Origin: an uncultured Alphaproteobacteria bacterium
GTDB lineage: Bacteria > Pseudomonadota > Alphaproteobacteria > HIMB59
Reading direction: 5' to 3'
Assembly: GCA_902610255.1 (NCBI GenBank)
Contig: CACLUX010000004.1
Coordinates: 5,605 to 69,604, forward strand
Length of the DNA stretch: 64,000 nucleotides
Part shown: positions 50,990-64,000 of the stretch, in pieces
Position numbering within the stretch: the stretch's first letter is position 1
Layout: every line of letters begins with the position of its first letter
Position numbers and translations under genes: made by a program
The notes under the pieces: generated by a model
The model's input: the letters and a program-made list of their open reading frames with translations, nothing else
What the model was told of the DNA's origin: nothing
The model's database searches: none

Positions 50990-52071
50990 TAACTCATAAA
51001 CTCACTTTGAAGTGCCTTATCATTTGAACCATCAAAAATTATTTGATTATTATTAAGAGTATCAAATTGAATTTGCTCATTAATATTAACTTGTGTGTCA
51101 CTATCAACTCTAATTTTTATATTTCCAAGTTGAGTTTCAATTGTAAGAATTTTTCTTGAACCTAAATATTCAACACCAAAGACATTACCTTTTACGCCAT
51201 TTTCAGAAACTAATTTTAAATTCTCTGGCCTTACACCTAAAAAATTTTCATTTGAGTCTGTTCCTTCTTTTTGTTCAGGGATATTTAATGATGAGTCTAA
51301 TAATTTAATACTTGATTGACTTGGAGAAATTTTTTCATTTATTGGTATGAAATTCATTCCTGGGGATCCAATAAAATTGGCAACAAACTTTGTTTTAGGT
51401 TTATTATAAATAACTTTTGGTGAGTCTGCCTGCAACACAACTCCCTCATTCATTACAGCTATTCGATCAGCCATCGACATTGCCTCTTGTTGATCGTGTG
51501 TTACATACACTGTAGTTGCATCAATATCATCGTGAAGTTTTCTTAATTCCAAACACATTAATTCTCTAAATTCTGCATCAAGTGTGCCCAAAGGTTCATC
51601 CATTAAAAATGCTTTAGGTCTTCTGACTAGCGCTCTTCCAAGTGCAACACGTTGGCGATCACCTCCTGCTAAAGAGGATACTTTTGATTTTAATAAGTGA
51701 TCAATTCTGAGAAGCTTTGCAGCTTCCAGAACTTTAGCATCTACTTCGCTTCGTGAGAGCTTTTGCATTTTCAGTGGGAAAGCCAGATTATTTCTTACAT
51801 TCATATGTGGATAGAGTGCAAAAAGCTGAAAAACAAAGGCTATATCTCGCTGGGAGGCCCTTAGATAGCCCACATCTTCCTTATCCAAATATATATTTCC
51901 AGAAGTTGGTAGCTCTAAACCGGCAATCATTCTTAAAGTGGTAGTTTTTCCACAACCTGAAGGACCGAGTAAAACGAAGAATTCTTTATTTTCAATAATA
52001 AGATTGGAGTTTTTCACTGCTACGAAATCTCCAAAAGATTTATGTAAATTTTTAATTTCTATTTCTGCCAT
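50989..52071 (-). CDS. Carbohydrate ABC transporter ATPase (CUT1), subunit 1 (start ATG 52071)
   Basis: GPSGCGKTT, LAGGDRQR, MDEPLGTLD. Confidence 0.93.
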   Translation of the reverse strand: MAEIEIKNLHKSFGDFVAVKNSNLIIENKEFFVLLGPSGCGKTTTLRMIAGLELPTSGNIYLDKEDVGYLRASQRDIAFVFQLFALYPHMNVRNNLAFPLKMQKLSRSEVDAKVLEAAKLLRIDHLLKSKVSSLAGGDRQRVALGRALVRRPKAFLMDEPLGTLDAEFRELMCLELRKLHDDIDATTVYVTHDQQEAMSMADRIAVMNEGVVLQADSPKVIYNKPKTKFVANFIGSPGMNFIPINEKISPSQSSIKLLDSSLNIPEQKEGTDSNENFLGVRPENLKLVSENGVKGNVFGVEYLGSRKILTIETQLGNIKIRVDSDTQVNINEQIQFDTLNNNQIIFDGSNDKALQSEFMS

Positions 52072-52073
52072 GG

Positions 52074-52265
52074 CTAATCTGGGAAATGACTTGTGATTAC
52101 AAATCCGATAGTTCCCACCAAAATAACGATAAAGGAATATGTGTACATCCACATAGCAAAAGGCTGCATCAGCATAAATACACCCAATAAAATTAAAACA
52201 GTTGATGCATTTTCCCAAATGGATCTTCTAAAAATTCTTCTCAATAAACTTTTTTTCTCAGCCAT
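52074..52265 (-). CDS. 63-aa 2-TM protein inside the ABC operon (start ATG 52265)
   Basis: MAEKKSLLRRIFRRSIWENASTVLILLGVFMLMQPF...SHFPD; TAATG coupling to the permease. Confidence 0.78.
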   Translation of the reverse strand: MAEKKSLLRRIFRRSIWENASTVLILLGVFMLMQPFAMWMYTYSFIVILVGTIGFVITSHFPD

Positions 52266-53209
52266 TATTTTCTTACCGCTCCGAATGTTATTCCCCTTAG
52301 AAGATGCTTTCTCAATACAACTGTAAATATCATCACTGGGATTAAAAATAATGTTGTCCCTGCTCCAATAGCAGGCCAATCAAGACCGCCCTCTCCTATA
52401 ATAGTTGGGATAAATGGTGGTGCAGTTTGTGCATTAAATTGTGTTAGTAAAACAGCAAATGCATATTCATTCCACGAAAATATCATGCAGAAAATTGCAG
52501 TTGCTGCAATACCTGTAGTTGCTTGGGGAAGGACTACTTTAAAAAATGCTTGCATTCTAGAGTAACCATCTATCATCGCAGCCTCCTCATACTCTCTCGG
52601 TATCTCATCCATAAAGCCTTTTAACAGCCAAACTGACAAACTTAAATTTACAACTGTATACAGAATAATCATGCCAACGTGAGTATCACCAAGACCAAGT
52701 TTTCTGTACATAATAAATATAGGTACTGCCACTGCTATTGGTGGGAACATTCTCGTAGATAAAATAAAAAATAATAAATCATCTTTCAGTGGGACTTTAA
52801 ATCTTGAAAGAGCGTAGGCAGCTAAGGAGCCTAAAAATACCGAAAAGAATGTGGCACCAAATCCAATTATTAAAGAATTGGAATACCTTGGTAAAAATTT
52901 TGATGGACCTGTTATGACCATTTCTCTACTGCGAACTAACTCCTCATACCATGTATCTGGTGGTGGAAGAGAGTCCAAATAATCCTTTGGTTGTCTTGAT
53001 CGATTTGTAAATAAATTCACATAGCCCTCTAAAGATGGTTCAAAAAAGACCTCTGGTGGGTAAGAGATAGCACTATCAACACTTTTAAAGCTTGTAGCAA
53101 CCATCCAAGTGATCGGTATAAGGGTTACGATCATGTAAACGATGATGATAGTGGCAGCTAATTTCCTTGAAAATCCTGTTGCTTCTAGTGGTGATCTTGA
53201 AGTGTCCAT
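52265..53209 (-). CDS. Carbohydrate ABC transporter permease 2
   Basis: AAYALSRF, EEAAMIDG, FSWNEY. Confidence 0.94.
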   Translation of the reverse strand: MDTSRSPLEATGFSRKLAATIIIVYMIVTLIPITWMVATSFKSVDSAISYPPEVFFEPSLEGYVNLFTNRSRQPKDYLDSLPPPDTWYEELVRSREMVITGPSKFLPRYSNSLIIGFGATFFSVFLGSLAAYALSRFKVPLKDDLLFFILSTRMFPPIAVAVPIFIMYRKLGLGDTHVGMIILYTVVNLSLSVWLLKGFMDEIPREYEEAAMIDGYSRMQAFFKVVLPQATTGIAATAIFCMIFSWNEYAFAVLLTQFNAQTAPPFIPTIIGEGGLDWPAIGAGTTLFLIPVMIFTVVLRKHLLRGITFGAVRK

Positions 53210-54111
53210 TATCGCTCTTTAATCTTGTTCATAACTTTTACATACACATTTCCAAAGCCGAATATGGTGACAAATAATATTACAGCAAAAGCAGAGCTGT
53301 AACCTGTTTTCCATTTTTCAAATGCTTCACGTTTTAAATTGATTGATGCTAGTTCAGTCGCCGATCCTGGACCCCCTGAAGTAAGCTCAGCTACCAGATC
53401 AAACATTTTGAAATTCTCGATCCCTCTAAATAATAATGCAAGAAGTAGAAAAGGAAGGACAGATGGCAATGTTATATGGATAAATTGCTGCCACTTACTA
53501 GCTCTGTCAACTTCTGCAGCCTCGTACAAATAATTTGGGATTGATCTTAATCCTGCCAGACAAATTAACATGGTAAAAGGTGTCCACATCCATGTATCGA
53601 CAATCACAATTGACCAAGGGGCTAAAGTGCTTGAACCAATCATATCAAAAATACCAAAGTCATAGAAAAAATTAACTACGTAATTAAATAAACCTACTTG
53701 AGGATTATATAAGTAAGTCCAAAATACACCTACGACTGCGGGGGAAAGCATCATTGGTAAAACTATTAAAGTAGTAAGTAGTTCATTGCCTTTAAATTTT
53801 TTATTTAAAAGAAGAGCAAGACCCAATCCAATTAATGCTTGTAAGACTAATGTCCAACAAACGAAGTGGGCAGTTATCTGCATCTTTTCCCATATCTCTT
53901 CTTTTCCTAAAATCTTTTTATAGTTTTTTAAACCCACAAATTTTACTTCTCTACCAATTTTATTGGCATAAAAGTTGGTGAATGACATCCTTATGGCATA
54001 GATGAGAGGATAAATATTTATAGCAAGTAATAGAATTAAAGTTGGTGCTATGAAAATCCAGGCTATTGCTTTATCAGATAAGCCTTTGAACTTTTTAACA
54101 GCACTTTTCAT
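53209..54111 (-). CDS. Carbohydrate ABC transporter permease 1
   Basis: FVGLKNY, DTWMWTPF, LYEAAEVD, GGPG. Confidence 0.94.
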   Translation of the reverse strand: MKSAVKKFKGLSDKAIAWIFIAPTLILLLAINIYPLIYAIRMSFTNFYANKIGREVKFVGLKNYKKILGKEEIWEKMQITAHFVCWTLVLQALIGLGLALLLNKKFKGNELLTTLIVLPMMLSPAVVGVFWTYLYNPQVGLFNYVVNFFYDFGIFDMIGSSTLAPWSIVIVDTWMWTPFTMLICLAGLRSIPNYLYEAAEVDRASKWQQFIHITLPSVLPFLLLALLFRGIENFKMFDLVAELTSGGPGSATELASINLKREAFEKWKTGYSSAFAVILFVTIFGFGNVYVKVMNKIKER

Positions 54112-54126
54112 ATATGTTTTAGATTG

Positions 54127-54150
54127 AAGGGCGGGATTAATCCCACCCTT
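54127..54150 (-). terminator. GC-rich hairpin after the binding-protein gene (attenuator or mRNA stabiliser)
   Basis: Minus strand AAGGGUGGGA-UUAA-UCCCGCCCUU; the U.G pair forms only on the minus strand. Confidence 0.65.
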
Positions 54151-54166
54151 TATATTAATTTAGTGA

Positions 54167-55477
54167 TTAAATTTTACCGTCGTCTTCGAAGACTTCAGTC
54201 CAATCATCAATGATTTTGTCTAATGCGTCTTTTGCAGAACCTTTTCCATTCACAACGTAGTCATGAATTCTCTCCTGCATTGGAAGCATTAATTCAACAA
54301 ATGTAGGCTCTTGCCAAAAGTCTTTGACGATGCCCATTGAGTCAAGGAAGCCTTGTGCGTAAACAGCTGAGTCAACGAAATCAGGTGATCCAAGAACATC
54401 CATATGACATGAATATCCTCCTAAATCCCACCATTTTTGTTGAATATCTGGCTTTGCAAACCACTTCATGTATTCAAGAGCCAAGTCTTGTTTATCAGAG
54501 TAACTCACAACTGAGATACCTTGACCACCAAGAGTAGCTGCACATACGTTTTGACATGGGTTAGCAAAGAAACCAGAAACTCTTCCGTCGCTGTCTTCTT
54601 TAGAAACGCCAGGCCAGAAAGCATACCAGTTCATTTGAAATGCAACCTGTCCTGATTTATATGCATCAAGATTTGCAACCATATAAGCATCTGAATGCCC
54701 TGGAGGTGCACAGTCTTCATACATTTTTCTATAAAATTCAACAGCCTCTACAGAAGCATCTGAGTTGAAGTAACCATCCATCTCGTATGGGTTATCAGGA
54801 TTTTCGTACTGCATACCCCATGCATACATGGCTGCTGTTACACCCATGGTGATACCTTCAGATCCACGCTCTGTATTGATAGCTGCACCGTATCTTACTT
54901 GTCCATCAATTTCTCTTCCTTGGAAGAAAGTACACATGTCATATAACTCATCCCAAGTTTTTGGAACACCTAGATCATATCCATGCTTACTTTTAAATTC
55001 AGCTTGAAGCTCTGGTCTATCAAACCAGTCTTTTCTATAAGCCCATGCTAAAGCATCACCCATTGCTGGAAGAGCGTAATAGTTAGGTGATCCTTTTGGC
55101 CATGTTGAATATGCGTAAACAGTTGCTGGGTTAAAATCATCCATTGAAATTCCGTTAGCATCAAAGAAATCATTTAGTTTAACATAGTGACCATACTCAG
55201 CACCTTGTCCAATCCACTGTGAGTCACCAATTAACAAGTCAAAAGTTTTACCTTGGTTATTTAACTCGTTAAGCATTCTCTCAGCAAAATTTGGCCATGG
55301 CACAAATTCGAAGTTCATTTCAACGCCTGTTTCAGCTGTAAATTCTTTACTTAGTTCTTGTAATGCATTAGCAGGATCCCAAGCGGCCCAGCCCAAAGTC
55401 AAAGACTCAGATTTAGCATTCAAAGAAAAAAGTAAGGCAAAAACAGGAACTAGAAATACAGATAGTATTTTTTTCAT
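54167..55477 (-). CDS. Sugar/polyol ABC transporter solute-binding protein (start ATG 55477)
   Basis: Signal peptide, SD GAGGAGG, WAAWDPANAL, GDSQWIG, TERGSEG. Confidence 0.92.
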   Translation of the reverse strand: MKKILSVFLVPVFALLFSLNAKSESLTLGWAAWDPANALQELSKEFTAETGVEMNFEFVPWPNFAERMLNELNNQGKTFDLLIGDSQWIGQGAEYGHYVKLNDFFDANGISMDDFNPATVYAYSTWPKGSPNYYALPAMGDALAWAYRKDWFDRPELQAEFKSKHGYDLGVPKTWDELYDMCTFFQGREIDGQVRYGAAINTERGSEGITMGVTAAMYAWGMQYENPDNPYEMDGYFNSDASVEAVEFYRKMYEDCAPPGHSDAYMVANLDAYKSGQVAFQMNWYAFWPGVSKEDSDGRVSGFFANPCQNVCAATLGGQGISVVSYSDKQDLALEYMKWFAKPDIQQKWWDLGGYSCHMDVLGSPDFVDSAVYAQGFLDSMGIVKDFWQEPTFVELMLPMQERIHDYVVNGKGSAKDALDKIIDDWTEVFEDDGKI

Positions 55478-55625
55478 GTTATTATTCCTCCTCTTTAATA
55501 ACAAAACTGGCTGATTATACAGTCTTTTTACATATTTATAAATGTAGATTATTCATAGTTTTAAAAACATTTTAAATAGCAGTTAACTGTAATATTATAG
55601 TTTGTCGCAGGAGGGGGGTTAAGCG

Positions 55626-56678
55626 ATGTCTATTAAAGGTCCAGCTATATTTTTAGCTCAATTTGCAGGTGATGATGCTCCGTTTAACAATTTAGAGAAT
55701 ATCTCAAAATGGGCTAGTGATTTGGGATACTTAGGTGTTCAGATACCTAGTTGGGATGAGAGGTTAATTAATTTAAAACAGGCTTCTGAAAGCAAAGATT
55801 ACTGTGACGAAATAAAAGGGACTCTTAAAAGTTTTAATTTAAATCTAACTGAGCTTTCGACACATCTCCAAGGTCAACTTGTAGCTGTTCATCCTGCATA
55901 TGACTCTGTATTTGATGGTTTTGCAGCCTCAGAGGTAAGAGGAAATCCAACTGCAAGGCAGCAATGGGCAGTTGATCAATTAATGATGGCCGCTAAGGCT
56001 TCGAAAAATTTTGGATTGACTGAACATGTTACTTTTTCAGGAGCATTGGCTTGGCCATATGTTTATCCATGGCCTCAAAGACCAGAAGGGTTAGTTGAAA
56101 CTGCATTTGATGAACTGGCTAAAAGGTGGAAACCTATTCTTAATGAATTTGATGAGTGTGGGGTGAATTTATGTTATGAAATTCATCCAGGCGAGGATCT
56201 TTTTGATGGAATAACTTTTGAAATGTTTCTAGATAAAGTGGGTAATCATGAACGCTGCAACATGTTATATGATCCAAGCCACTTTGTTTTGCAGCATTTA
56301 GATTATTTGCAGCATATTGACATTTATCACGAGAAAATAAAAATGTTTCATGTCAAAGACGCAGAACTAAATCCCACTGGTAAACAAGGAGTCTATAGTG
56401 GATTTCAATCTTGGAAAAACAGAGCAGGTCGATTTAGATCTTTAGGAGATGGGCAAGTAGATTTCAAGTCAATTTTCTCCAAACTTACTACTTACGGCTT
56501 TGATGGATGGGCTGTTTTAGAATGGGAGTGTGCTTTGAAACATCCTGAAGACGGAGCTAAAGAGGGCTCTGTATTTATTAAAGATCATTTGATTAGAGTT
56601 ACCGAGAATGCTTTCGATGATTTTGCCGATGCTGGTACTGATCAAGATGCGAACAAAAAAATGCTTGGAATTGAATGA
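55626..56678 (+). CDS. Sugar phosphate isomerase/epimerase (AP-endonuclease-2 TIM barrel, IolE/MocC-like)
   Basis: YEIHPGED, YDPSH, FHVKD, VLEWE metal ligands. Confidence 0.88.
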   Translation: MSIKGPAIFLAQFAGDDAPFNNLENISKWASDLGYLGVQIPSWDERLINLKQASESKDYCDEIKGTLKSFNLNLTELSTHLQGQLVAVHPAYDSVFDGFAASEVRGNPTARQQWAVDQLMMAAKASKNFGLTEHVTFSGALAWPYVYPWPQRPEGLVETAFDELAKRWKPILNEFDECGVNLCYEIHPGEDLFDGITFEMFLDKVGNHERCNMLYDPSHFVLQHLDYLQHIDIYHEKIKMFHVKDAELNPTGKQGVYSGFQSWKNRAGRFRSLGDGQVDFKSIFSKLTTYGFDGWAVLEWECALKHPEDGAKEGSVFIKDHLIRVTENAFDDFADAGTDQDANKKMLGIE

Positions 56679-56682
56679 TAAT

Positions 56683-57840
56683 ATGACCAATAAATTAAAA
56701 TTAGGAATGGTTGGTGGCGGCTCCGGAGCATTTATTGGAGAAGTTCACCGTATAGCATCTAGAATTGATGACCGCTTTGAACTGGTCGCTGGTGCCTTGT
56801 CATCCAATCCTGAAAAAGCTCAAGCCTCTGGCAGAGATATTGGAATAGCAGATGAAAGGAATTATAAGGACTACCTTGAAATGGTCGAAAAAGAATTGAT
56901 CAGAGAGGATAAAATAGATGCTGTAGCTATAGTGACACCAAATCATATGCACCATCCAATCGCTAAAGCTTTTATGGAGAAAGGTTTTAACATAATTTGT
57001 GACAAACCCCTTGCCATGAATGTTAATCAATGTGAGGAACTTATAAAATGTAAAAAAGACAATAACGTTCTTTTTGCTTTAACTCATAACTACACTGGTT
57101 ATCCCATGATTAGAAATGCCAGAGCTCTTTGTAAGAGAGGTGACTTAGGTGAAATAAGAGTAATTCAAGCAGAGTATGCTCAAGATTGGCTGACCGAAGA
57201 TTTAGAAAATAGAATTAATGATGGGGGAAACAAACAGGCCTCTTGGAGAACTGATCCTAATCAATCAGGTGCTGGTGGATGTATTGGTGACATTGGAACT
57301 CATGCTTACAATCTGATTAGGTTTATAACTGATCTCAATACAGAGGAGATATCTGCAGAGTTAACATCTTTTGTACCTGGGAGAAAATTAGATGATAATG
57401 CTCAAATATCGTTACGATTTAAAGGAGGAGCAAAAGGCACTATCTGGTCTTCACAAGTAGCCCCAGGAAATGAAAATCATTTACAAATAAGAATTTATGG
57501 TAATAAGGCCGGACTAGAATGGTGTCAAGAAGATCCAAATTACCTTTACTTTACAAAATTTGGAGAACCCAAACAAAAAATTACAAGAGGTGGATCAGGT
57601 GCTATGAGCGATGCGGGAGATGTTACTAGAATTCCTGCTGGGCACCCTGAGGGATATTTAGAGGGCTTTGCAAATATATATACTGATGTAGCTAATGCAC
57701 TAATTGATCAGAAAAATGGCAAATTTAATGAGGAAAATCATCATTTTCCAAGTGTAGAAGATGGACTTGAGGGTATTAAATTTATAGAAAGGTCAATCGC
57801 CTCAAGCTCATCAAATTCAAGCTGGGTAAATTTCAATTAA
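56683..57840 (+). CDS. Gfo/Idh/MocA NAD(P)-dependent oxidoreductase (start ATG 56683)
   Basis: GMVGGG, VTPNHMH, CDKP, GDIGTH, GHPEGY. Confidence 0.92.
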   Translation: MTNKLKLGMVGGGSGAFIGEVHRIASRIDDRFELVAGALSSNPEKAQASGRDIGIADERNYKDYLEMVEKELIREDKIDAVAIVTPNHMHHPIAKAFMEKGFNIICDKPLAMNVNQCEELIKCKKDNNVLFALTHNYTGYPMIRNARALCKRGDLGEIRVIQAEYAQDWLTEDLENRINDGGNKQASWRTDPNQSGAGGCIGDIGTHAYNLIRFITDLNTEEISAELTSFVPGRKLDDNAQISLRFKGGAKGTIWSSQVAPGNENHLQIRIYGNKAGLEWCQEDPNYLYFTKFGEPKQKITRGGSGAMSDAGDVTRIPAGHPEGYLEGFANIYTDVANALIDQKNGKFNEENHHFPSVEDGLEGIKFIERSIASSSSNSSWVNFN

Positions 57841-58790
57841 TTCCAACTAAGTTTTTTACGTGTATCCCAATAATCTTGAGTGGACAAACTAAAAGACTCA
57901 AGAGAGGGCAATTCGGTATCTATTTTTTCAAGACAACTTAAATTTTCATCTAACTGTTTGATTGTTGATGCTCCTGTTAGACAAATTTTAACAAACGGTA
58001 GTTGATAAACCCAAAGATAAGACAATTGCTCCAAAGTTAAATCCATAGATGAGGCAACTGACTTTAATTCTTTAATTTTGTTTTGATGAAATTCTTTATT
58101 TGAATTAGTTAGTCTTCCATTTGAGAAAATCTCTTTTGCAATTACATTGATCTTTTTTTCAGATACTTCTTTTAAAATGGAAATACAAGATTGGTCAAAG
58201 ATATTAATGGTCGTTTGTAAATAAGAAAATAGATTAAGTTTTTCATTCTTAATTAAAAGGTCATTAATAGTTTTCTCTTGATCTGGGCCACTTGTTGAGA
58301 TTCCTATTTCTATTCCATTTTTTTTTATTGTCTCAAGCTCCTTTAAAACATTAATATCATCTAAGACTTTACTTTCTGAATTGACAGAATGAATGTGATA
58401 TAGATCAATACTTTTTCCTAAATTAAGTCTTGTCTCCACCCATTGTTGTTTTAAAAATTCAACTGAGTGATCTTTTCTTTCATGTTGATCTGCCTGAACT
58501 TCCCAATTTGCTAAATATTCATAGCCCCACTTAGACCCCACAAAACCATCAAATTGTTTTTGAGCTCTAATCCAACTAGATAAAAATTCCTCAGCATCTC
58601 CATATACCCTTGCCGCATCGAAATATCGAATACCTCTCTTGTAAGCATGGCTAAGTACTTCGTGACAATGAGATCTCATAGAATTTTTTGATATGTCGCT
58701 GCCTAAATCTGAACTATGACCAATGTTTATATATCCGGGCCTCCCAAGAGAAGCCAATCCTAGGCCTATTTTATTGTCTAATTTAAACAA
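57837..58790 (-). CDS. Aldo/keto reductase
   Basis: GLGLASLGRPGY, FDAARVYG, SKWGY, LYHIHS. Confidence 0.88.
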   Translation of the reverse strand: MFKLDNKIGLGLASLGRPGYINIGHSSDLGSDISKNSMRSHCHEVLSHAYKRGIRYFDAARVYGDAEEFLSSWIRAQKQFDGFVGSKWGYEYLANWEVQADQHERKDHSVEFLKQQWVETRLNLGKSIDLYHIHSVNSESKVLDDINVLKELETIKKNGIEIGISTSGPDQEKTINDLLIKNEKLNLFSYLQTTINIFDQSCISILKEVSEKKINVIAKEIFSNGRLTNSNKEFHQNKIKELKSVASSMDLTLEQLSYLWVYQLPFVKICLTGASTIKQLDENLSCLEKIDTELPSLESFSLSTQDYWDTRKKLSWN

Positions 58791-59403
58791 TTATATGATT
58801 TGCTATTTGACTTTTTATTGTCAGTGGGTCAGTTAAATGAATAGTTTGAAAGCCAAGTGATTGCGCCGCCTCAATATTTTCAATACGATCATCAATGAAA
58901 AGAGTTTGTTCAGGTGTTAAATTAAATCTTGAAATCGCTAATTTATAAATTTCAGGGTCTGGTTTTACTAAAAATTCTCTACCAGAGATAATTTTATCAT
59001 CAAATTCTTTCAGGAATGGGTGTTGATCTTCCATACCCTCATAAGTCTCATCTGACCAGTTTGACAAGACATAGCAGGGGTAACCACTTGATTTTATTTT
59101 TCTAAAAATATCAACTGTATCTTGATAAACCCCATTAACCATATTCCTATGATTTGGATAATATTGCTTTATTTCATTCTCATAATTAGGGAAATTTTTT
59201 ATTGCATCTTTAACTGCATCATCAATTTTTACCCCAGCATCGCATCTCATATCTAGATGAGGAAACGCGATTGTATTCATAAAATATTCTCTTTTAGTTT
59301 GATCAGGAATGATATTTTTAAATACATAATGTGGATCCCAATCAAAAAAAACATTACCTAAATCAAATAGAAATTTTGTAATTTTCATCGAATTAATCGA
59401 CAA
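58783..59403 (-). CDS. HAD-family phosphatase
   Basis: FDLGNV, LSNW, KPDPEIY, FIDD. Confidence 0.9.
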
Positions 59404-60700
59404 AAAAATTAATTAGATTTTCAAGATATTCTTGGCGACCGGACTTTGGTTGAGGGTTTATATTTTTAGCAATGACATTTTTATGAATATCTTCAAGAGA
59501 CATTGAAGTCATTAGTTGTTTTTCAGAAGCCCACTGTTCATATCTTTGTTTTAAAAAATTCTCATAACTACTATCATTAATCATTTTTTCAACAGCAATA
59601 AGAGTTCTAGCACAAGTATCCATAGAGCCGATATGTGCATAGAATAGATCCTCAGGATCTATTGATTGCCTTCTAATCTTAGCATCCATGTTAAGACCTC
59701 CTGAGGAAAAACCGCCATTTTTAAAAATATAGTAAAAAGGCAAAACTAATTCTTCTACATTGTTAGGGAATTGGTCTGTATCCCATCCTACTAAGTAGTC
59801 TCCTCTGTTAATATCAATACTCCCAAAGATGTCATTGGAAAGTGCATATGCAATCTCGTGCTCGAATGAATGTTTTGCTAAAATAGCGTGATTTTGCTCG
59901 ATATTTAGCTTGAATTCTTTTTCTAAACCATATTTTTGAAGAAATGCGAAAACATTAGCAGAGTCAAAATCATATTGATGTTTCGTTGGCTCATGGGGTT
60001 TCGGCTCAATGAGGAGTAGACCCTTAAAACCAATTTTGTGCTTATGCTCAGCTACCATGTTCAAAAATCTACCAAGCTGATCATATTCTTGTTTCATATT
60101 AGTATTTAAAATTGTTTCGTAACCCTCTCTGCCTCCCCATAAAACATAATTTTGTCCACCTAAAAACATTGTATTTTCCATACACATCTTCACTTGAGCA
60201 GCTGCATATTGAAAAACATCAGGATCAGGATTAGTAGCAGCACCAGACATGTACCTGCGGTGGCTGAATAAATTTGCTGTTCCCCAAAGAAGTTTTACTT
60301 TACTTGTTTCAAGTTTTTTTGAAATTTCATCGATAATGGTTTTTTGAATTTTTTCTGTCTCCGAAAAACTTTTACCCTCTGGAGCAACATCTACGTCATG
60401 AAAACAGAAATATGGTATTCCTAATTTTTCAAAAAAATCGAATGCATTATTGAGCTTATCTTTTGCTTGTTCTATTTTATCTCCTGCTTCCATCCATGGT
60501 CTTAAAAATGTCTGTCCTCCAAAAGGGTCACCCCCTGGCCAATTAAAAGTGTGCCAGTAACATACTGCCATTCTCAGATGTTCCTCTAATGTTTTTCCTA
60601 GAATTTTTTTATTAGCATCATAAAATTTAAATGAAAGTGGATTTGTAGAGTCTCTACCTTCATATTTAATTGTAGGTATATCTTTGAAATAATCAGACAT
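59393..60700 (-). CDS. xylA: Xylose isomerase (class II)
   Basis: [44 protein letters not shown]. Confidence 0.97.
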
Positions 60701-60703
60701 AAA

Positions 60704-61657
60704 TTAATCGTAATAAAACATTGGGGCTTTTTTAAATTCTTCCCAAGCATGCGGGTCGTGCCCTGTGACTACTGTAGCATTTTTGTCTTTTGCAATTTTT
60801 TTGAGTTTTTTTACAGAGTCAACAACGTCAACAGCAGAGCAAACAAGACCTGGTAGTGTTAAATTGTTCCAATGATCCATTGTGTAAGCTGCATCTATAG
60901 TAAGCAATAAATAACCTGAATTTGGTAAATTAACTAAAAAAGACTGATGGCCCGGTGCATGCCCCGGAGTAAAAATTACAATTATTGATCCGTCGCCATA
61001 TAAGTCATAAAAGTCATCATTTTTATCTCTTAAAAATTTCCAATTAATTCCAGGTTTATCAAAGTCTTTTCTAATATAAGCAGGCTTTGAGAACCAATCA
61101 GGATTAAAAGCATAATCATATTCCTTTTGTTGAACTAGGTGTGTTGCATTAGGAAACCTTCCAACACCACCTGAGTGATCGAGGTGAAGATGAGAATGTA
61201 AGACATATCTTATACCTGCTGGATTAACCCCAATAGAGTTAAGTTGATCAATACAATTTTCAGTTTTTCCCATAATTGGATCATAAGCTGCAACAACAGA
61301 ACCCCAATGAGCATGTTTATCTTCACTGACCTCTTTTGCATTGCCTCCGTCAATGACCACATCCCCTTTTGGGTGTCTTATCAAAAACCATGGAACAGGT
61401 ATCTCAAAGTCCTCATTAGATTGATTCATTTTTATATATTTCATTTTCGTTTTTAGAGTTCCGGTCTGGAACATATAGAGCCTCATGTCAGTAGAAACTT
61501 GTGAGTTCGTAAAGTGACTATATTCTTTTTTTGACTCCTCAATTGCTTCTTTTATGGAATATTCTTTAACTTTTTGATCTGTTTGTTTATTTGTAATAAT
61601 TTTATCAAATTGATCTAAATCAGATTTTTTGTAACTAACGCTTAATTTTTTTTCCAT
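60704..61657 (-). CDS. attM: AttM/BlcC-type N-acyl homoserine lactone / gamma-butyrolactone lactonase with a 57-aa N-terminal extension
   Basis: MRLYMFQTGTLK, IPVPWFLI, SHLHLDH, TPGHAPGHQS, TIDAAY, GHDP. Confidence 0.85.
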   Translation of the reverse strand: MEKKLSVSYKKSDLDQFDKIITNKQTDQKVKEYSIKEAIEESKKEYSHFTNSQVSTDMRLYMFQTGTLKTKMKYIKMNQSNEDFEIPVPWFLIRHPKGDVVIDGGNAKEVSEDKHAHWGSVVAAYDPIMGKTENCIDQLNSIGVNPAGIRYVLHSHLHLDHSGGVGRFPNATHLVQQKEYDYAFNPDWFSKPAYIRKDFDKPGINWKFLRDKNDDFYDLYGDGSIIVIFTPGHAPGHQSFLVNLPNSGYLLLTIDAAYTMDHWNNLTLPGLVCSAVDVVDSVKKLKKIAKDKNATVVTGHDPHAWEEFKKAPMFYYD

Positions 61658-61933
61658 CTACTTAAATTCTATCTCAATAAATTTATAAATAAAATCATTG
61701 TTATTAAATACATTGTGGTTAACTCCCTTTTCTCTAAAGTAGGATCCACCTTTTGCTAGTTTTGAAATTGATACCTCACCATCATGATTAACAATTTTTA
61801 GTTCCCCATCTAACAAGGGCACTACCACATAATCGTATTCATGAATATGCTGGCCAGTTGAGTCCCCAACTTCAAAAGACCACTCTGTAACTCTAGTTTT
61901 TTGATTATCAATCATGACATTGGCTTTAGCCAT
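61658..61933 (-). CDS. BauB-like small cupin (start ATG 61933)
   Basis: IDNQKTRVTEW, TGQHIHEYDYVVVP, GVNHNV. Confidence 0.8.
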   Translation of the reverse strand: MAKANVMIDNQKTRVTEWSFEVGDSTGQHIHEYDYVVVPLLDGELKIVNHDGEVSISKLAKGGSYFREKGVNHNVFNNNDFIYKFIEIEFK

Positions 61934-61937
61934 GTCG

Positions 61938-62297
61938 TTAGATATTTCTACAGGGTACGCTCTCAGCTTTTTCAGCCTTAAGAGCTTCGGCAGCTTTTGT
62001 TGCTTTTTCAACTGAGTCGAAAACAAGTTCAGGAAAAAGAACAAAAGGTTTTGCTCTATCAGCACTGAGCTGTCCAACACACCAGGTTTTACCGGGTTCA
62101 ACACACATGACCATATATGTCCCAGGAATAGGACCATAATGTCTATTATTCAAAGCAAAAAGGCACTCTGCCATATCGTTTAATTTATCGATGTCTAGAT
62201 TTTGAAGTGCTTTTTTTTCTAATTCATTTAACGGAGTATCCAGAGCGCCAAGTGTCTCTTTCCCCCATGGAATCTCCTGCATATTTTGTTTTTTCAT
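61938..62297 (-). CDS. N,N-dimethylformamidase small (alpha) subunit-like protein
   Basis: GTYMVMCVEPGKTWCVGQLSADRAKPFVLFPELVFDSVEKA resembles the DmfA1 C-terminal module; 3 nt after the large subunit. Confidence 0.55.
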   Translation of the reverse strand: MKKQNMQEIPWGKETLGALDTPLNELEKKALQNLDIDKLNDMAECLFALNNRHYGPIPGTYMVMCVEPGKTWCVGQLSADRAKPFVLFPELVFDSVEKATKAAEALKAEKAESVPCRNI

Positions 62298-62300
62298 AGT

Positions 62301-63998
62301 TTAAGGTAAAGGCCCGTCCTTTAAGAAACCTTTAAGCGTATTTTCCATTATTCTAGAAACATTATTATTGTAATTATTATGTGAGAGACTACCGCACCAA
62401 GCCAAAGACCCTGGTGCAAACATTGCTCCATTGTTAGGTGTTTTATAGTAAATCATATCAGCTCTGACCATTGGATTTTCATGACCACCACCATAGTAAC
62501 CACGAACAGCAAAGTGTATTTCCTCGTTAACTTGCAACATCATATTAGAGTGATCCTGCGAGCGAGCCAAATAATAAGCATTATGTGGGGTTCCAAATTC
62601 TAAGTCGTATCTGTCTAACTCCAAACCGGCAGCTCCTCCACCAACTAAACCAAAATCACCAATCACCTCATCTGCTCCAATCCCCTCAAAGATCCATGAA
62701 CATTCAGGTTTAAAACTATCTTCTTCTCTTTTGTAGTATGAGGACACGTCAAATCCATAAGATGTAAAAGTTAACCCACAAACTTTAGAAGGTATTCTTC
62801 CTCGAGCTCTCCACATACCTCCATATTTACCATCAAAAGCATTATTGTATTCACCTGGGTTAGATGTCCATGCTCTTGTGCCTGCTTCACCTTTTCGAAC
62901 TTCGGTAATATTAGGGTTGTCAGGATGATACTCACTAATCCAATAAAATCCATCTGACCCTAGATAAAAACATCTACCACCCTGCATTTGATATGACTCT
63001 AGAGCATCCATATATTTCTCAGATGAATACTCAGGGTGACTTCCAGTCATCACAACTTTATAACGATTTAATAAATTTATACCTTCATGTTCCAAATCCT
63101 CGTCTGTCAGAACATCAAAATCAAAACCTTTTTCTTCTAGCCAATCAGTAAGATGTAAGTCGGCATTGAGTTGCCATAATGAAGGAGAAAGCCAATGTCT
63201 GTATTTGGGTCTCATATTAAGGATTGGTCTTAGTCTTGATGATATTGATACACCATGTCCGTCTGAGTGAAGTGAATAAGTTGATAGCCCGTATTCTCTA
63301 TGTTCATTTAAATATAAATCTGCCGGCTCAAGCACAGGCACTTTACCTGCAAGCAATTGTGCTACCACTGAGTTAGTTCCTAGATTATCATTGGAGTAAG
63401 CCATGTAACTATTAGTAGGCAATAAGAATAAAGTTTTTGCAGTTGCTGTCCCCTTGGGAGGTTTAACACAAAATGGAATATAGTCCTCATTTTCTGATTC
63501 CTCTCGTCCGTCTACTCTTAGTCTTGCAGCGTAGACACCACTTTTTAATCCCTCAGGTACTTTTAAAGTAAAGTCTACATCCCATCTTGCATCGTCTATA
63601 TCATCGTCATGAAAATGAATTGCACCGTATTCCTCAGGTTTATGATGGAAAACCATTTCATCCGCTGTCCAGTTATGTCCTGTCATACCTCTGTTTGGCA
63701 TATTAATAATAAATCCGTGGTGATTATTTGGAGAAGTATCAACAATCTTTGTTGAGGCAATGTTTTTGCCAATATTCGCATGAAAATCCCAGGCACCTAC
63801 GACTGTTGACCTGACAGTGGTATTACACTCATCGTAGCTTGATGCAAGTGTTTCAATTTCAGCCTTCGATAGCGCAATATTAGATAATCTAGGTCTGTCT
63901 ATCTTTCCATTAAATGTCTTTGTTTGCTCAGGTAATTCAATAGGGTGAGGTACCTCTTTAAAATGTCCGCCAGAAATATGTCTGCCTGATCTATTGTT
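62301..63998 (-). CDS. N,N-dimethylformamidase large (beta) subunit family, 5'-truncated by the window edge
   Basis: Frame open to the window end (FNGKIDRPR, GAWDF); AIHFHDDD, PTNSYMAYSN, GLSTY, GSHPEY, AAGLELDR. Confidence 0.9.
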   Translation of the reverse strand, partial: NNRSGRHISGGHFKEVPHPIELPEQTKTFNGKIDRPRLSNIALSKAEIETLASSYDECNTTVRSTVVGAWDFHANIGKNIASTKIVDTSPNNHHGFIINMPNRGMTGHNWTADEMVFHHKPEEYGAIHFHDDDIDDARWDVDFTLKVPEGLKSGVYAARLRVDGREESENEDYIPFCVKPPKGTATAKTLFLLPTNSYMAYSNDNLGTNSVVAQLLAGKVPVLEPADLYLNEHREYGLSTYSLHSDGHGVSISSRLRPILNMRPKYRHWLSPSLWQLNADLHLTDWLEEKGFDFDVLTDEDLEHEGINLLNRYKVVMTGSHPEYSSEKYMDALESYQMQGGRCFYLGSDGFYWISEYHPDNPNITEVRKGEAGTRAWTSNPGEYNNAFDGKYGGMWRARGRIPSKVCGLTFTSYGFDVSSYYKREEDSFKPECSWIFEGIGADEVIGDFGLVGGGAAGLELDRYDLEFGTPHNAYYLARSQDHSNMMLQVNEEIHFAVRGYYGGGHENPMVRADMIYYKTPNNGAMFAPGSLAWCGSLSHNNYNNNVSRIMENTLKGFLKDGPLP

Positions 63999-64000
63999 GA

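What the first reader, a model, noticed from the sequence alone, without database searches (positions are those of the whole stretch)
57837..64000. Seven-gene run joining a dimethylformamidase-like iron amidase, a cupin and a lactonase to xylose isomerase: candidate undescribed catabolic pathway
Seen: dmfA2-like, dmfA1-like, cupin, attM, xylA, HAD and AKR genes are separated by 0-4 nt or overlap, with no visible promoter or terminator between them. Known: DMFase is an Fe(III) amidase with Tyr/Tyr/Glu ligands, and candidate ligands are present here (AYSN, STY, GSHPEY), as is the GLELD Glu. DMF is mainly an industrial solvent, so a streamlined marine genome probably keeps this enzyme for an unknown natural amide. 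Inference: amide cleavage, lactone opening and pentose isomerase/phosphatase/reductase steps may degrade one compound class (N-formylated or N-acylated sugars or lactones), or streamlining has fused two pathways into one operon.
Basis: partly seen in the sequence, partly recalled or inferred. Interest (0 to 1): 0.72.

Follow-up and report, generated by a model that had tools for sequence, protein, structure and literature searches.

The report
Amidase island tail abutting xylose genes
The seven tightly packed genes are two unrelated units placed end to end: the tail of the published "flotillin-associated rhodopsin" island of ocean bacteria, which carries an iron amidase of unknown natural substrate and a lactonase, and the host's own xylose genes, so they are not one new pathway.

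Summary
All seven genes lie on the minus strand, with gaps of 0-4 nt or overlaps and no terminator between them. The DMFase iron ligands and catalytic Glu are present.

The genome is a HIMB59/AEGEAN-169 alphaproteobacterium. The single-pathway reading fails:
- DmfA2-orf119-cupin-AttM are the last genes of the published ~26 kb FAR island (Haro-Moreno 2023).
- xylA-HAD-AKR are resident sugar genes.
- Congeners without the island keep xylA-HAD-AKR behind a 129-nt spacer.
- Outside the HIMB59-like group, 0 of 35 island loci carry xylA.

Within HIMB59-like genomes the AttM-xylA junction is always -1 to +3 nt, so read-through into xylA is likely.

New points:
- The true DmfA1 ortholog lies just beyond the window.
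- orf119 is a second, distant DmfA1 paralog, so the enzyme is encoded by three genes.
- flotillin-A1-A2-orf119 also occurs without a rhodopsin, in two HIMB59-genus genomes and on an Aminobacter plasmid.
- A conserved palindrome upstream of A1 also clusters around the single IclR gene and the trimethylamine/methylamine genes of a close relative. This points to small N-methyl amides as substrate, which is inferred.

The scan has reported this island and the three-gene amidase before on other DNA.

The parts
57837..58790 (-). Aldo/keto reductase, 317 aa. Resident HIMB59 gene, not part of the island.
   Evidence: PF00248, 94.9 bits. Kept next to HAD and xylA in island-free congeners G011 and G023.
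58783..59403 (-). HAD-IA phosphatase-like hydrolase. Its probable ATG is at 59388. Resident gene.
   Evidence: PF00702 and PF13419. Only sub-threshold NCBIfam hits, the nearest being YihX-like glucose-1-phosphatase. Kept with xylA in G011 and G023.
59393..60700 (-). Xylose isomerase XylA, 435 aa. First gene outside the island.
   Evidence: TIGR02630, 652 bits against a cut-off of 533. Present in sister-family genomes that showed no DmfA2 match. A xylB above its cut-off lies on contig C7.
60701..60703 (-). Junction between the island and the resident genes: 3 nt between the AttM stop and the xylA ATG.
   Evidence: Sequence read. The junction is -1 to +3 nt in seven HIMB59-like loci. In G011 xylA is instead preceded by a 129-nt spacer and divergent Liv-type ABC genes. 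The same Liv gene lies 28 kb from xylA in G021.
60704..61657 (-). AttM/BlcC-family metallo-beta-lactamase-fold lactonase, 317 aa, with a 56-aa N-terminal extension. Last gene of the FAR island.
   Evidence: NF045700, 426.6 bits against a cut-off of 390. PDB 9KHQ N-acylhomoserine lactonase, E 2.6e-104. It is cds26, the last entry of the published HIMB59 cluster table.
61658..61933 (-). Small one-domain cupin, 91 aa, of unknown function.
   Evidence: PF07883, 29.2 bits. Matches uncharacterised structures 3LAG and 2FQP at E 1e-22 and 5e-21. Present in 29 of 29 HIMB59-like island loci and 6 of 35 others.
61938..62297 (-). orf119: a second, distant paralog of the DMFase small subunit. Candidate third component of the amidase.
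   Evidence: Always directly downstream of A2: 29/29 and 35/35 loci. hhalign against the DmfA1 profile gives probability 88%, E 2.9e-6. Its profile retrieves DmfA1-type proteins from 1.84 billion sequences at E 5.9e-9. The top structural match of its AF2 model is 6lvb_B: Z 5.2, rmsd 3.3 A, 57 residues.
62301..64000 (-). DmfA2-like large subunit. The window holds its C-terminal 565 codons; the full gene is 784 aa and ends at G000:C4:70259.

Further parts of the same unit lie beyond the window, on the minus strand of G000:C4:
- DmfA1 ortholog, 142 aa, at 70259-70687.
- IclR-operator-like palindrome GTTTCAttattTGGAAC at 70729-70745, inside a 105-nt spacer.
- SSF symporter, 684 aa, at 70793-72847.
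- 3' part of an alpha/beta hydrolase at 72862-73233, cut by the contig end.
   Evidence: Large subunit:
- PF20254 and Laminin_G_3.
- 6LVB chain A, E 2.5e-193.
- Y420, Y460, H540, E542, E679 and F715 are invariant; the N547 equivalent is Asp568.

Parts beyond the window:
- ORFs listed.
- A1 against 6lvb_B: E 0.007 with the single sequence, 7.4e-9 with the profile.
- Palindrome: sequence; conserved across HIMB59-like loci; among the ten sites within one mismatch in the assembly, it alone matches the pattern exactly.
- SSF: PF00474.
- Hydrolase orthologs: 85-100% identical across phyla.

Best explanation
The run is a composite of two units.

**Unit 1 (shown).** A1 (beyond the window), A2, orf119, cupin and AttM are the 3' end of the ~26 kb flotillin-associated-rhodopsin (FAR) island of a HIMB59/AEGEAN-169 bacterium. 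The island sits in what is, in island-free congeners, the divergent spacer between a Liv-type ABC operon and xylA. It leaves only 3 nt before the xylA start codon.

**Unit 2 (shown).** xylA-HAD-AKR are resident sugar genes. They lie next to a Gfo/Idh/MocA oxidoreductase plus TIM-barrel pair and a sugar ABC transporter.

**Transcription (inferred).** It probably starts at a promoter in the 105-nt spacer upstream of A1, which carries an IclR-type operator-like palindrome. It then reads through AttM into xylA-HAD-AKR. The fusion would be physical and limited to the HIMB59-like group, not a shared pathway.

**Enzyme (sequence features shown; activity inferred).** The amidase is a DMFase-family enzyme. 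Its 2-Tyr-1-Glu Fe(III) site and the catalytic His and Glu are intact. It is encoded by three genes: the large subunit, the DmfA1 ortholog, and a second distant DmfA1 paralog (orf119).

**Likely function (inferred, about 35%).** A small N-methylated formamide or acetamide is taken up, possibly by the neighbouring SSF symporter. It is hydrolysed to a methylamine plus formate or acetate. The amine then enters the trimethylamine and N-methylglutamate pathway genes that carry the same palindrome in a close relative.

AttM and the island's Fe-alcohol dehydrogenase resemble the Agrobacterium BlcC/BlcB pair. They probably open a small lactone and oxidise the resulting hydroxy acid. Whether that substrate is related to the amide is unknown.
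For: **Family assignments and ligands:**

**Organism:** record titles of near-identical loci name HIMB59 and AG-9xx single-cell genomes.

**Published island:** PMC10308929 describes the cluster. Its HIMB59 table runs cds20 hydrolase, cds21 SSF, cds22 (A1), the DMFase between cds22 and cds24, cds24 (orf119), cds25 cupin and cds26 AttM. It has no cds27 and no xylose gene.

**Synteny in 80 loci:**
- Outside the HIMB59-like group, FArhodopsin, flotillin, p129, hydrolase, SSF, A1, orf119 and an AttM-like MBL are each linked in every locus with enough flank (29/29 or 35/35).
- In the same loci xylA, HAD and AKR are linked in 0/35.
- In HIMB59-like loci xylA is linked in 28/29.

**Island-free congeners:** G011 and G023 keep SBP-TIM-GFO/AKR-HAD-xylA, with a 129-nt spacer before xylA. 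The flanking Liv gene lies 28 kb from xylA in G021.

**Junction:** it is conserved at -1 to +3 nt, and the -35-like box inside attM is not conserved.

**A1 ortholog:**

**orf119 paralogy:**

**The A1-A2-orf119 trio with flotillin but without rhodopsin:** two HIMB59-genus genomes and Aminobacter niigataensis DMFA1 plasmid p1. Paracoccus pAMI2 has only dmfA1-dmfA2.

**Palindrome:**
- It is conserved upstream of A1 and of FArhodopsin.
- In G021 four sites lie within 20 kb around the single IclR gene, among tmm, soxBA-like, mgsABC-like and gmaS-like genes. None of 200 shuffles reached that count.
- The G000 background is 10 sites per 1.09 Mb.

**Expression:** DmfA peptides from Alpha- and Gammaproteobacteria are reported in Pacific metaproteomes (PMC9477243).
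Against: - Co-transcription of xylA with AttM rests on spacing and on the lack of a conserved promoter.
- The consensus scans have low power in a genome of about 30% GC.
- No IclR gene and no tmm cluster are found in this 80%-complete assembly. The regulon link is shown only in a close relative and was never tested by binding.
- The palindrome was not found in SAR11 or gammaproteobacterial islands, so the regulatory link may be specific to HIMB59.
- The oxyanion residue N547, needed for DMF hydrolysis in Paracoccus (PMC7686228), is Asp here. The substrate or the chemistry may therefore differ.
- No activity has been measured for any island-type enzyme.
- That orf119 is a subunit, rather than for example an assembly factor, is inferred only from homology and invariable adjacency.
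Confidence: 0.72

Rival explanations
1. One integrated pathway. The amidase, cupin, lactonase, xylose isomerase, phosphatase and reductase act in turn on one compound class, such as N-formyl or N-acyl sugars or sugar lactones.
For: - The eight genes are co-directional, with gaps of 0-4 nt and no terminator-like site.
- The AttM-xylA junction is kept at -1 to +3 nt in HIMB59-like genomes whose xylA has diverged to 85% identity.
- Linkage is 28/29 in that group.
Against: - The linkage is confined to one lineage, so it counts as a single event.
- 0/35 island loci of SAR11, Arenicellales, Rhodobiaceae and others carry xylA, HAD or AKR.
- G011 and G023 keep xylA-HAD-AKR without the island.
- xylA was found in 12/16 sister-family genomes searched, DmfA2 in 0/16.
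- One HIMB59-like locus (L045) has AttM followed by other genes.
- Genes in these streamlined genomes are packed this tightly whatever their function; even convergent genes overlap here.
Confidence: 0.06
2. A membrane-raft lipid-amide or signal-degrading module. The amidase and the AttM lactonase act on acyl-homoserine-lactone-like or other lipid amides at flotillin microdomains. The hydrolase and a lipid-carrier-like protein assist. Catabolism of small soluble amides would not be the role.
For: - AttM scores as an equivalog-level AHL/gamma-butyrolactone lactonase.
- Flotillin is the most constant partner of A1-A2-orf119, even where there is no rhodopsin.
- The published description notes a sterol-carrier-like gene in the cluster and a LuxR regulator in the Pseudothioglobus cluster.
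- The alpha/beta hydrolase is 85-90% identical across phyla.
Against: - The constricting Phe693 equivalent is conserved. The Paracoccus paper says the aromatic-lined pocket and this Phe exclude larger amides.
- A sodium:solute symporter and Liv- or amide-type ABC transporters accompany the enzyme, which fits small soluble substrates.
- The operator-like palindrome is shared with methylated-amine genes.
- An Aminobacter strain named DMFA1 carries the flotillin-linked form.
Confidence: 0.14
3. The amidase genes are passengers of the island, with a substrate unrelated to methylamines (for example N-acetyl or N-formyl amino compounds, as in the family's acylase member). The palindrome would be a general HIMB59 promoter element, not a sign of a shared regulon.
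For: - The second solved family member is an N-acetyl-(R)-beta-phenylalanine acylase (8HUY, E 2e-134), so the family is not limited to formamides.
- N547 is replaced by Asp.
- The palindrome is absent from SAR11 and gammaproteobacterial islands.
- Other near-matches in G000 precede unrelated genes.
Against: - Three exact and one near-exact site lie within 20 kb around the IclR/tmm/NMG genes, against a background of 10 per 1.09 Mb.
- The site is conserved upstream of A1 within an otherwise diverging spacer.
- A2 is 74-100% identical across classes and always linked to the island core. That is not how a passenger gene behaves.
Confidence: 0.2

Closest known systems
FAR (flotillin-associated rhodopsin) gene cluster of Pelagibacterales, HIMB59 and Pseudothioglobus (Haro-Moreno et al. 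2023, mSystems, PMC10308929)
   Same: Same genes in the same order as HIMB59 cds20-26 of its Table S2: hydrolase, SSF, 142-aa protein, DMFase, 119-125-aa hypothetical, cupin, AttM. AttM is the last gene. The near-identical loci L015 and L102 carry FArhodopsin and flotillin just upstream.
   Different: - The paper treats the DMFase as one of several metabolic genes.
- It names the small subunit 'inner-membrane translocator' and leaves orf119 hypothetical.
- It reports long spacers at the SAR11 island borders. Here the right border is 3 nt from xylA.
- In this assembly the rhodopsin-flotillin part is not on the contig, which ends in the hydrolase gene.
N,N-dimethylformamidase DmfA1/DmfA2 of Paracoccus sp. 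DMF and P. aminophilus pAMI2 (PDB 6LVB; PMC7686228)
   Same: The large subunit aligns end to end (E 2.5e-193, 44% identity to the pAMI2 protein by tblastn). Y399, Y440, E521, H519, E657 and F693 are conserved. A small-subunit ortholog sits directly upstream.
   Different: - A third gene, orf119, is always present here. It is a distant small-subunit paralog and is absent from pAMI2.
- N547 is Asp.
- The partners are flotillin, an SSF symporter and a lactonase, rather than the LuxR-type regulator and IS elements seen on pAMI2.
- Activity is untested.
Flotillin-A1-A2-orf119 unit on Aminobacter niigataensis DMFA1 plasmid p1 (NZ_CP132959) and in HIMB59-genus genomes G002 and G015
   Same: Same four-gene core: flotillin, small subunit, large subunit (55-57% identity) and an orf119 homolog (32-46%).
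   Different: No rhodopsin, hydrolase, SSF, cupin or AttM. These units are flanked by Liv-type ABC or TRAP transporters instead. No paper on the strain was found, so its use of DMF is suggested only by the strain name.
Agrobacterium tumefaciens blcABC (attKLM) gamma-butyrolactone operon
   Same: The AttM/BlcC-family lactonase scores above the equivalog cut-off. The island also holds an Fe-alcohol dehydrogenase, which sits directly next to AttM in SAR11 (31/35 loci). From my own knowledge, this resembles BlcB next to BlcC.
   Different: - No succinate-semialdehyde dehydrogenase (BlcA) or BlcR was seen.
- In HIMB59 the Fe-ADH is at the far end of the island on the other strand.
- The Fe-ADH reaches no NCBIfam cut-off.
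- A 56-aa N-terminal extension is present on AttM.
N-acetyl-(R)-beta-phenylalanine acylase (PDB 8HUY, 8I59, 8I5A)
   Same: Second solved member of the same family, aligned over the full length (E 2.2e-134). It shows that the fold also cleaves acetyl amides with larger amine parts.
   Different: More distant than the DMFase. Only one molecule name, on chains A and B, is listed for the entry, and its subunit make-up was not examined. No paper was found in the library.

Membership tests
DMFase family (DmfA2 large subunit) | DMFA2_C domain with full-length similarity to a solved DMFase | tested here: met
   PF20254, 307 bits. 6LVB chain A at E 2.5e-193 over residues 3-784.
DMFase family (DmfA2 large subunit) | 2-Tyr-1-Glu iron ligands (Y399, Y440, E521) plus H519 and the catalytic E657 | tested here: met
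   Y420, Y460, E542, H540 and E679 align to these positions and are invariant in 22 relatives. The residue roles are taken from PMC7686228.
DMFase family (DmfA2 large subunit) | Oxyanion-stabilising Asn547 (the N547A mutant is inactive on DMF) | tested here: not met
   Asp568 occupies this position here. In 22 island-type sequences the position holds Asp in 13 and Asn in 9.
DMFase family (DmfA2 large subunit) | Adjacent DmfA1 small-subunit gene | tested here: met
   A 142-aa ORF overlaps the A2 start by 1 nt. Its profile hits 6lvb_B at E 7.4e-9.
DMFase family (DmfA2 large subunit) | Two-gene alpha/beta architecture | tested here: not met
   A third gene, a paralog of the small subunit, follows A2 in every island-type and flotillin-only locus. 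It is absent from Paracoccus pAMI2.
DMFase family (DmfA2 large subunit) | Hydrolysis of DMF to dimethylamine and formate | not testable with these tools
The only indirect hints are the operator shared with methylamine genes and the Aminobacter strain name.
AttM/BlcC quorum-quenching lactonase family | Score above the NCBIfam equivalog cut-off, and an MBL HxHxDH motif | tested here: met
   NF045700, 426.6 bits against 390. HSHLHLDH is visible in the translation. 9KHQ at E 2.6e-104.
AttM/BlcC quorum-quenching lactonase family | Operon partners BlcB-like dehydrogenase and BlcA-like semialdehyde dehydrogenase | tested here: inconclusive
   An Fe-ADH is in the island. It is adjacent to AttM in SAR11 and distant from it in HIMB59. 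No aldehyde dehydrogenase was seen in the stretches examined.
Class II xylose isomerase (XylA) | Score above the TIGR02630 equivalog cut-off, and a xylulokinase in the genome | tested here: met
   652 bits against 533. XylB (TIGR01312), 501 bits against 380, on contig C7.
FAR gene cluster | FArhodopsin-flotillin pair in the same cluster | tested here: inconclusive
   Not on this contig, which ends in the hydrolase gene. Present upstream in congener loci whose A2 proteins are 99-100% identical.
FAR gene cluster | Gene order hydrolase-SSF-A1-A2-orf119-cupin-AttM, as in the published HIMB59 table, ending at AttM | tested here: met
Single catabolic operon that includes xylA-HAD-AKR | Linkage conserved in independent lineages | tested here: not met
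   0/35 loci outside the HIMB59-like group. Island-free congeners keep xylA-HAD-AKR.
IclR-type regulon of methylated-amine genes (lead from an earlier scan note) | The same palindrome upstream of A1 and at the IclR/tmm/NMG genes | tested here: met
   The GTTTCA-N5-TGRAAC site is conserved upstream of A1 and of FArhodopsin. Four sites lie around the IclR gene of G021; none of 200 shuffles reached that count.
IclR-type regulon of methylated-amine genes (lead from an earlier scan note) | IclR gene present in this genome, and binding of the protein to the site | tested here: inconclusive
   No IclR_C match in G000, which is 80% complete. There is one copy in each of four more complete congeners. 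Binding cannot be tested here.

The most novel reading that the evidence does not exclude
The constant core of the island may not be the rhodopsin. It may be flotillin plus a three-gene Fe(III) amidohydrolase: the large subunit and two diverged small-subunit paralogs. In HIMB59 this enzyme would belong to the IclR-controlled methylated-amine regulon. It would hydrolyse naturally occurring methylated formamides or acetamides to methylamines, at or near flotillin microdomains. That would add an unrecognised amide branch to the marine methylamine cycle and give the FAR island its first concrete biochemical role.
Probability: 0.25. Interest if true: 0.7.

Novelty: new variant of a known kind. Interest (0 to 1): 0.42.

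Why it matters
The proposed seven-gene pathway is not real, so no new sugar-amide catabolism should be inferred from it.

What remains is still useful.
- The amidase is one of the most conserved genes of an island carried by abundant ocean bacteria: 74-100% identity across bacterial classes.
- DMFase-type peptides are reported in ocean metaproteomes.
- The natural substrate is unknown.

This work contributes four points.
- The enzyme is encoded by three genes.
- It travels with flotillin even where there is no rhodopsin.
- A cultured Aminobacter carries the same core.
- In HIMB59 it shares an operator-like site with trimethylamine and methylamine genes.

Together these turn a vague annotation into a testable hypothesis: methylated amides feeding the methylamine pathway. 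They also name a culturable organism in which to test it.

The case also illustrates that, in streamlined genomes, operon-like packing can join unrelated functions.

Tried and rejected
- **Complex prediction** (A2 + A1 residues 30-142 + orf119 residues 20-119): no verdict (score 0.00, controls not run). This is not evidence either way.
- **Foldseek of the orf119 model against PDB**: no match at E <= 0.001. Only the VIA-align second look put 6lvb_B on top, at a modest Z of 5.2.
- **Single-sequence and profile searches of orf119 against PDB**: nothing.
- **Promoter/terminator consensus scan**: not above chance. A -35/-10-like pair inside attM, about 95 nt before xylA, is not conserved in relatives, so I dropped it as an internal promoter.
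- **Genome-wide palindrome search in G000**: the other near-matches precede unrelated genes. The tmm/IclR cluster is not in this assembly, so the regulon had to be examined in congener G021.
- **Alignment of the island-border spacers of G011 and G021**: too diverged to place the breakpoint to the base.
- **Quick tree of A2 homologs**: long branches and an unfinished careful search. I use it only to say that the flotillin-only forms group together, not for rooting or order of events.
- **Literature:**
  - no paper found on Aminobacter strain DMFA1;
  - no paper found on the beta-phenylalanine acylase;
  - no paper found that documents natural marine DMF;
  - xylose is not mentioned in the AEGEAN-169 paper.
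- **4-pyridoxolactonase and vitamin B6 degradation** as a reading for AttM plus the hydrolase: rejected, since the score is 126 bits against a cut-off of 325.

Full report
**1. What is in the sequence**

The window has about 30% GC. It is G000:C4:5605-69604, from a 1.09 Mb, 80%-complete assembly.

From 64000 down to 57837 there are seven minus-strand ORFs. Pfam and NCBIfam name them as follows:
- a DmfA2-like protein, cut by the window end;
- a 119-aa ORF with no family hit;
- a 91-aa cupin;
- an AttM-family lactonase (NF045700, 426.6 bits, cut-off 390);
- xylose isomerase (TIGR02630, 652 bits, cut-off 533);
- a HAD-IA hydrolase;
- an aldo/keto reductase.

The gaps are 3, 4, 0 and 3 nt, followed by two short overlaps. 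The AKR stop overlaps the stop of a convergent Gfo/Idh/MocA gene by 4 nt.

A consensus scan finds no terminator-like site between the genes. Promoter-like sites are fewer than expected by chance.

**2. Beyond the window**

The contig continues for 3.6 kb.
- The large subunit is 784 aa. It has a Laminin_G_3 domain and a DMFA2_C domain. It aligns end to end with the Paracoccus DMFase large subunit (6LVB, E 2.5e-193).
- A 142-aa ORF (G000:C4:70259-70687) overlaps its start by 1 nt. This ORF is the real small-subunit ortholog: 6lvb_B at E 0.007 with the single sequence and 7.4e-9 with a 16-sequence profile.
- Next come a 105-nt spacer, a 684-aa sodium:solute symporter, and an alpha/beta hydrolase cut by the contig end.

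**3. The catalytic site**

The residue roles come from the Paracoccus structure paper (PMC7686228). Y399, Y440 and E521 are the iron ligands. H519, N547 and E657 are needed for activity. F693 from the neighbouring subunit narrows the pocket.

Here Y420, Y460, E542, H540, E679 and F715 align to these positions. They are invariant in 22 relatives.

N547 is Asp568 in this protein. Island-type sequences carry either Asp or Asn at this position. The iron site looks intact, but one residue that matters for DMF hydrolysis differs.

**4. Who has it, and with what**

The protein has thousands of relatives at 70-100% identity. They come from marine Alpha- and Gammaproteobacteria and a Verrucomicrobiaceae MAG. 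Within the genus, 19 of 24 genomes searched have it. None of 16 sister-family genomes searched has it. Record titles place the near-identical copies in HIMB59 and AG-9xx single-cell genomes.

I compared 80 loci with up to 10 kb of flank.

In the 45 loci outside the HIMB59-like group, each of the following is linked to A2 in every locus with enough flank (29/29 or 35/35). These loci are SAR11, Arenicellales, Poriferihabitaceae, Rhodobiaceae and other Gammaproteobacteria.
- a 232-aa rhodopsin;
- a flotillin;
- a 129-aa protein;
- the hydrolase;
- the symporter;
- A1;
- orf119;
- an AttM-like MBL.

In the same loci xylA, HAD, AKR and the neighbouring sugar genes are linked in 0/35. In HIMB59-like loci xylA-HAD-AKR follow AttM in 28/29.

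**5. It is a published island**

A full-text search led to Haro-Moreno et al. 2023 (PMC10308929). The paper describes the ~26 kb flotillin-associated rhodopsin (FAR) gene cluster of Pelagibacterales, HIMB59 and Pseudothioglobus. It lists an N,N-dimethylformamidase among the cluster's metabolic genes.

Its Table S2 for HIMB59 gives this order:
- cds20, hydrolase;
- cds21, symporter;
- cds22, which is our A1, named 'inner-membrane translocator' with no domain predicted;
- the DMFase, between cds22 and cds24;
- cds24, hypothetical, which is our orf119;
- cds25, cupin;
- cds26, AttM.

There is no cds27 and no xylose gene. The paper reports transcription of the SAR11 cluster at 60 m and co-transcription of the rhodopsin and flotillin genes.

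**6. The boundary**

xylA was found in 12 of 16 sister-family genomes searched, and in the same-genus genomes G011 and G023, which gave no DmfA2 match.

In G011 and G023 the block SBP-TIM-GFO/AKR-HAD-xylA is intact. There xylA is preceded by a 129-nt AT-rich spacer and divergent Liv-type ABC genes.

In the 94%-complete congener G021 the same Liv gene lies 28 kb from xylA. The stretch between them holds the whole island:
- an Fe-alcohol dehydrogenase;
- ParA-like and unknown genes;
- a GST;
- PxpA/B/C-like genes with a biotin carboxylase;
- an ABC transporter;
- rhodopsin, flotillin, p129, hydrolase, symporter, A1, A2, orf119, cupin and AttM.

The island therefore occupies the former divergent spacer and ends 3 nt before the xylA start codon.

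Across HIMB59-like genomes whose xylA has diverged to 85% identity, the junction stays at -1 to +3 nt. The only -35-like box inside attM is not conserved. Read-through from the island into xylA-HAD-AKR is thus likely. It is a juxtaposition specific to this lineage, not a shared pathway.

Expanded sugar use is a known AEGEAN-169 trait (PMC10308909). A xylulokinase above its cut-off lies on another contig.

**7. orf119**

It has no Pfam or PDB sequence hit, yet it always follows A2. Three results tie it to the DMFase small subunit.
- Profile-profile comparison with the A1 family gives 88% probability, E 2.9e-6, over 58 columns.
- Its profile, run against 1.84 billion representatives, gives only 92 hits. 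Several of these (P0164 at E 5.9e-9; also P0197, P0205, P0212 and P0211) score higher with the A1 profile than with the orf119 profile.
- An AlphaFold model (pLDDT 73) has 6lvb_B as its top VIA-align match. The figures are Z 5.2, rmsd 3.3 A and 57 residues, over the same C-terminal sheet-plus-helix region. That Z is modest on its own.

The enzyme is encoded by three genes. Whether orf119 is a stoichiometric subunit is inferred, not shown.

**8. Flotillin is the constant partner**

Two HIMB59-genus genomes carry a second, diverged copy of the unit. It consists of flotillin, A1, A2 (57% identity) and orf119, with no rhodopsin. It lies between Liv-type ABC and TRAP transporters.

The same four genes, followed by a Liv-type ABC transporter, sit on plasmid p1 of the cultured Aminobacter niigataensis strain DMFA1.

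The classical Paracoccus pAMI2 locus has only a LuxR-type regulator, dmfA1 and dmfA2.

**9. A regulatory lead**

I tested the idea.
- The SSF-A1 spacer holds GTTTCAttattTGGAAC at G000:C4:70729-70745.
- The core GTTTCA-N5-TGRAAC is conserved in HIMB59-like loci while the rest of the spacer diverges. A second copy precedes FArhodopsin.
- G000 has no IclR match, but it is incomplete. Four more complete congeners have exactly one each.
- In G021, 20 kb around that gene hold four such sites, three of them exact. None of 200 shuffles reached that count. The background in G000 is ten sites per 1.09 Mb.
- The genes there are trimethylamine monooxygenase, SoxB/SoxA-family oxidase subunits, three glutamate-synthase-like genes and a type III glutamine-synthetase-like gene. 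From my own knowledge, the last two sets look like N-methylglutamate synthase and gamma-glutamylmethylamide synthetase.
- The site was not found in SAR11 or gammaproteobacterial islands.

This supports co-regulation of the amidase operon with methylated-amine catabolism in HIMB59. It does not prove it. The inference that follows is a substrate that releases a methylamine.

**10. Reading**

The run is the island tail plus resident sugar genes.

The amidase most likely cleaves a small N-methylated formamide or acetamide. AttM and the island's Fe-ADH resemble the BlcC/BlcB pair and probably handle a small lactone and its hydroxy acid. In SAR11 the Fe-ADH is adjacent to AttM in 31/35 loci.

The cupin matches only uncharacterised structures. 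DMFase-type peptides are reported in Pacific metaproteomes (PMC9477243).

**11. Status**

The island and its DMFase annotation are published. The scan has reported the island and the three-gene amidase on other DNA before.

I found none of the following in the papers I read:
- the correct small-subunit assignment;
- the paralogous third gene;
- the rhodopsin-free flotillin-amidase core in a cultured bacterium;
- the exact border at xylA;
- the shared palindrome.

As a candidate new pathway the finding is not supported. As a pointer to an unexplained, very conserved marine enzyme it has moderate interest.

Noticed in passing
L079 (Arenicellales, 2.9 Mb chromosome), L090 (Rhodobiaceae, 5.25 Mb chromosome), L074 (Poriferihabitaceae), L085, L087: Complete rhodopsin-flotillin-p129-hydrolase-MBL-SSF-A2-orf119-A1 clusters occur in MAGs with large genomes. 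The 2023 paper assigned the marine metagenomic FArhodopsin sequences it recovered to three streamlined taxa only. In these MAGs the gene order differs: A1 follows orf119.
   Followed up: partly
L103 (G002:C1:80500-96800) and L104 (G015:C52:1700-18000): A second, diverged flotillin-A1-A2-orf119 unit without a rhodopsin (A2 57% identical) lies in some genomes of the same genus, between Liv-type ABC and TRAP/TAXI transporters.
   Followed up: partly
L108 (Aminobacter niigataensis DMFA1 plasmid p1, NZ_CP132959: 9232-14345): A cultured soil or sediment bacterium carries flotillin, a small subunit, a DMFase-like large subunit and an orf119 homolog, next to a two-component system and a Liv-type ABC transporter. 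It could serve as a genetic model for the marine enzyme.
   Followed up: partly
L117 (G021:C4:103200-123100), sites at 9888, 10734, 12859 and 18853: Four copies of GTTTCA-N5-TGRAAC flank the only IclR gene and the tmm, sox-like and N-methylglutamate-pathway-like genes. This whole cluster is missing from the G000 assembly.
   Followed up: yes
window 60704-60874 (AttM residues 1-56): The K/E/D-rich N-terminal extension of AttM is kept in HIMB59-like orthologs (312-317 aa). It is absent from most SAR11 orthologs (271-278 aa) and from the solved homolog 9KHQ (261 aa).
   Followed up: partly
window 55626-57840 (+) and 49979-55504 (-): A Gfo/Idh/MocA oxidoreductase and a xylose-isomerase-like TIM-barrel protein lie next to a CUT1-type sugar ABC transporter with two ATPase genes, and a Dak2-domain gene follows. 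The oxidoreductase gives weak levoglucosan-dehydrogenase and xylose-dehydrogenase hits. This looks like a 3-keto-sugar type module of unknown substrate.
   Followed up: no
L084 (NZKH01000033.1, 4.8 kb contig labelled Methanobacteriota archaeon): This contig holds hydrolase-A1-A2-orf119 at SAR11-like identity (A2 76%). It is probably a mis-binned bacterial contig, not an archaeal copy.
   Followed up: no
L038 (BOYI01000001.1), downstream of attM: The first in-frame ATG of the xylA reading frame lies 517 nt after the AttM stop, and the match starts late. This may be a 5' truncation, a frameshift or an assembly error in this MAG.
   Followed up: no
L101 6640-14264 (G021 island, left half): PxpA, PxpB-like (420 aa) and PxpC-like genes lie together with a stand-alone biotin carboxylase and an ABC transporter. 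This is a lactam- or urea-carboxylase-like set, different from plain 5-oxoprolinase. It sits in the same island as the amidase and the lactonase.
   Followed up: no
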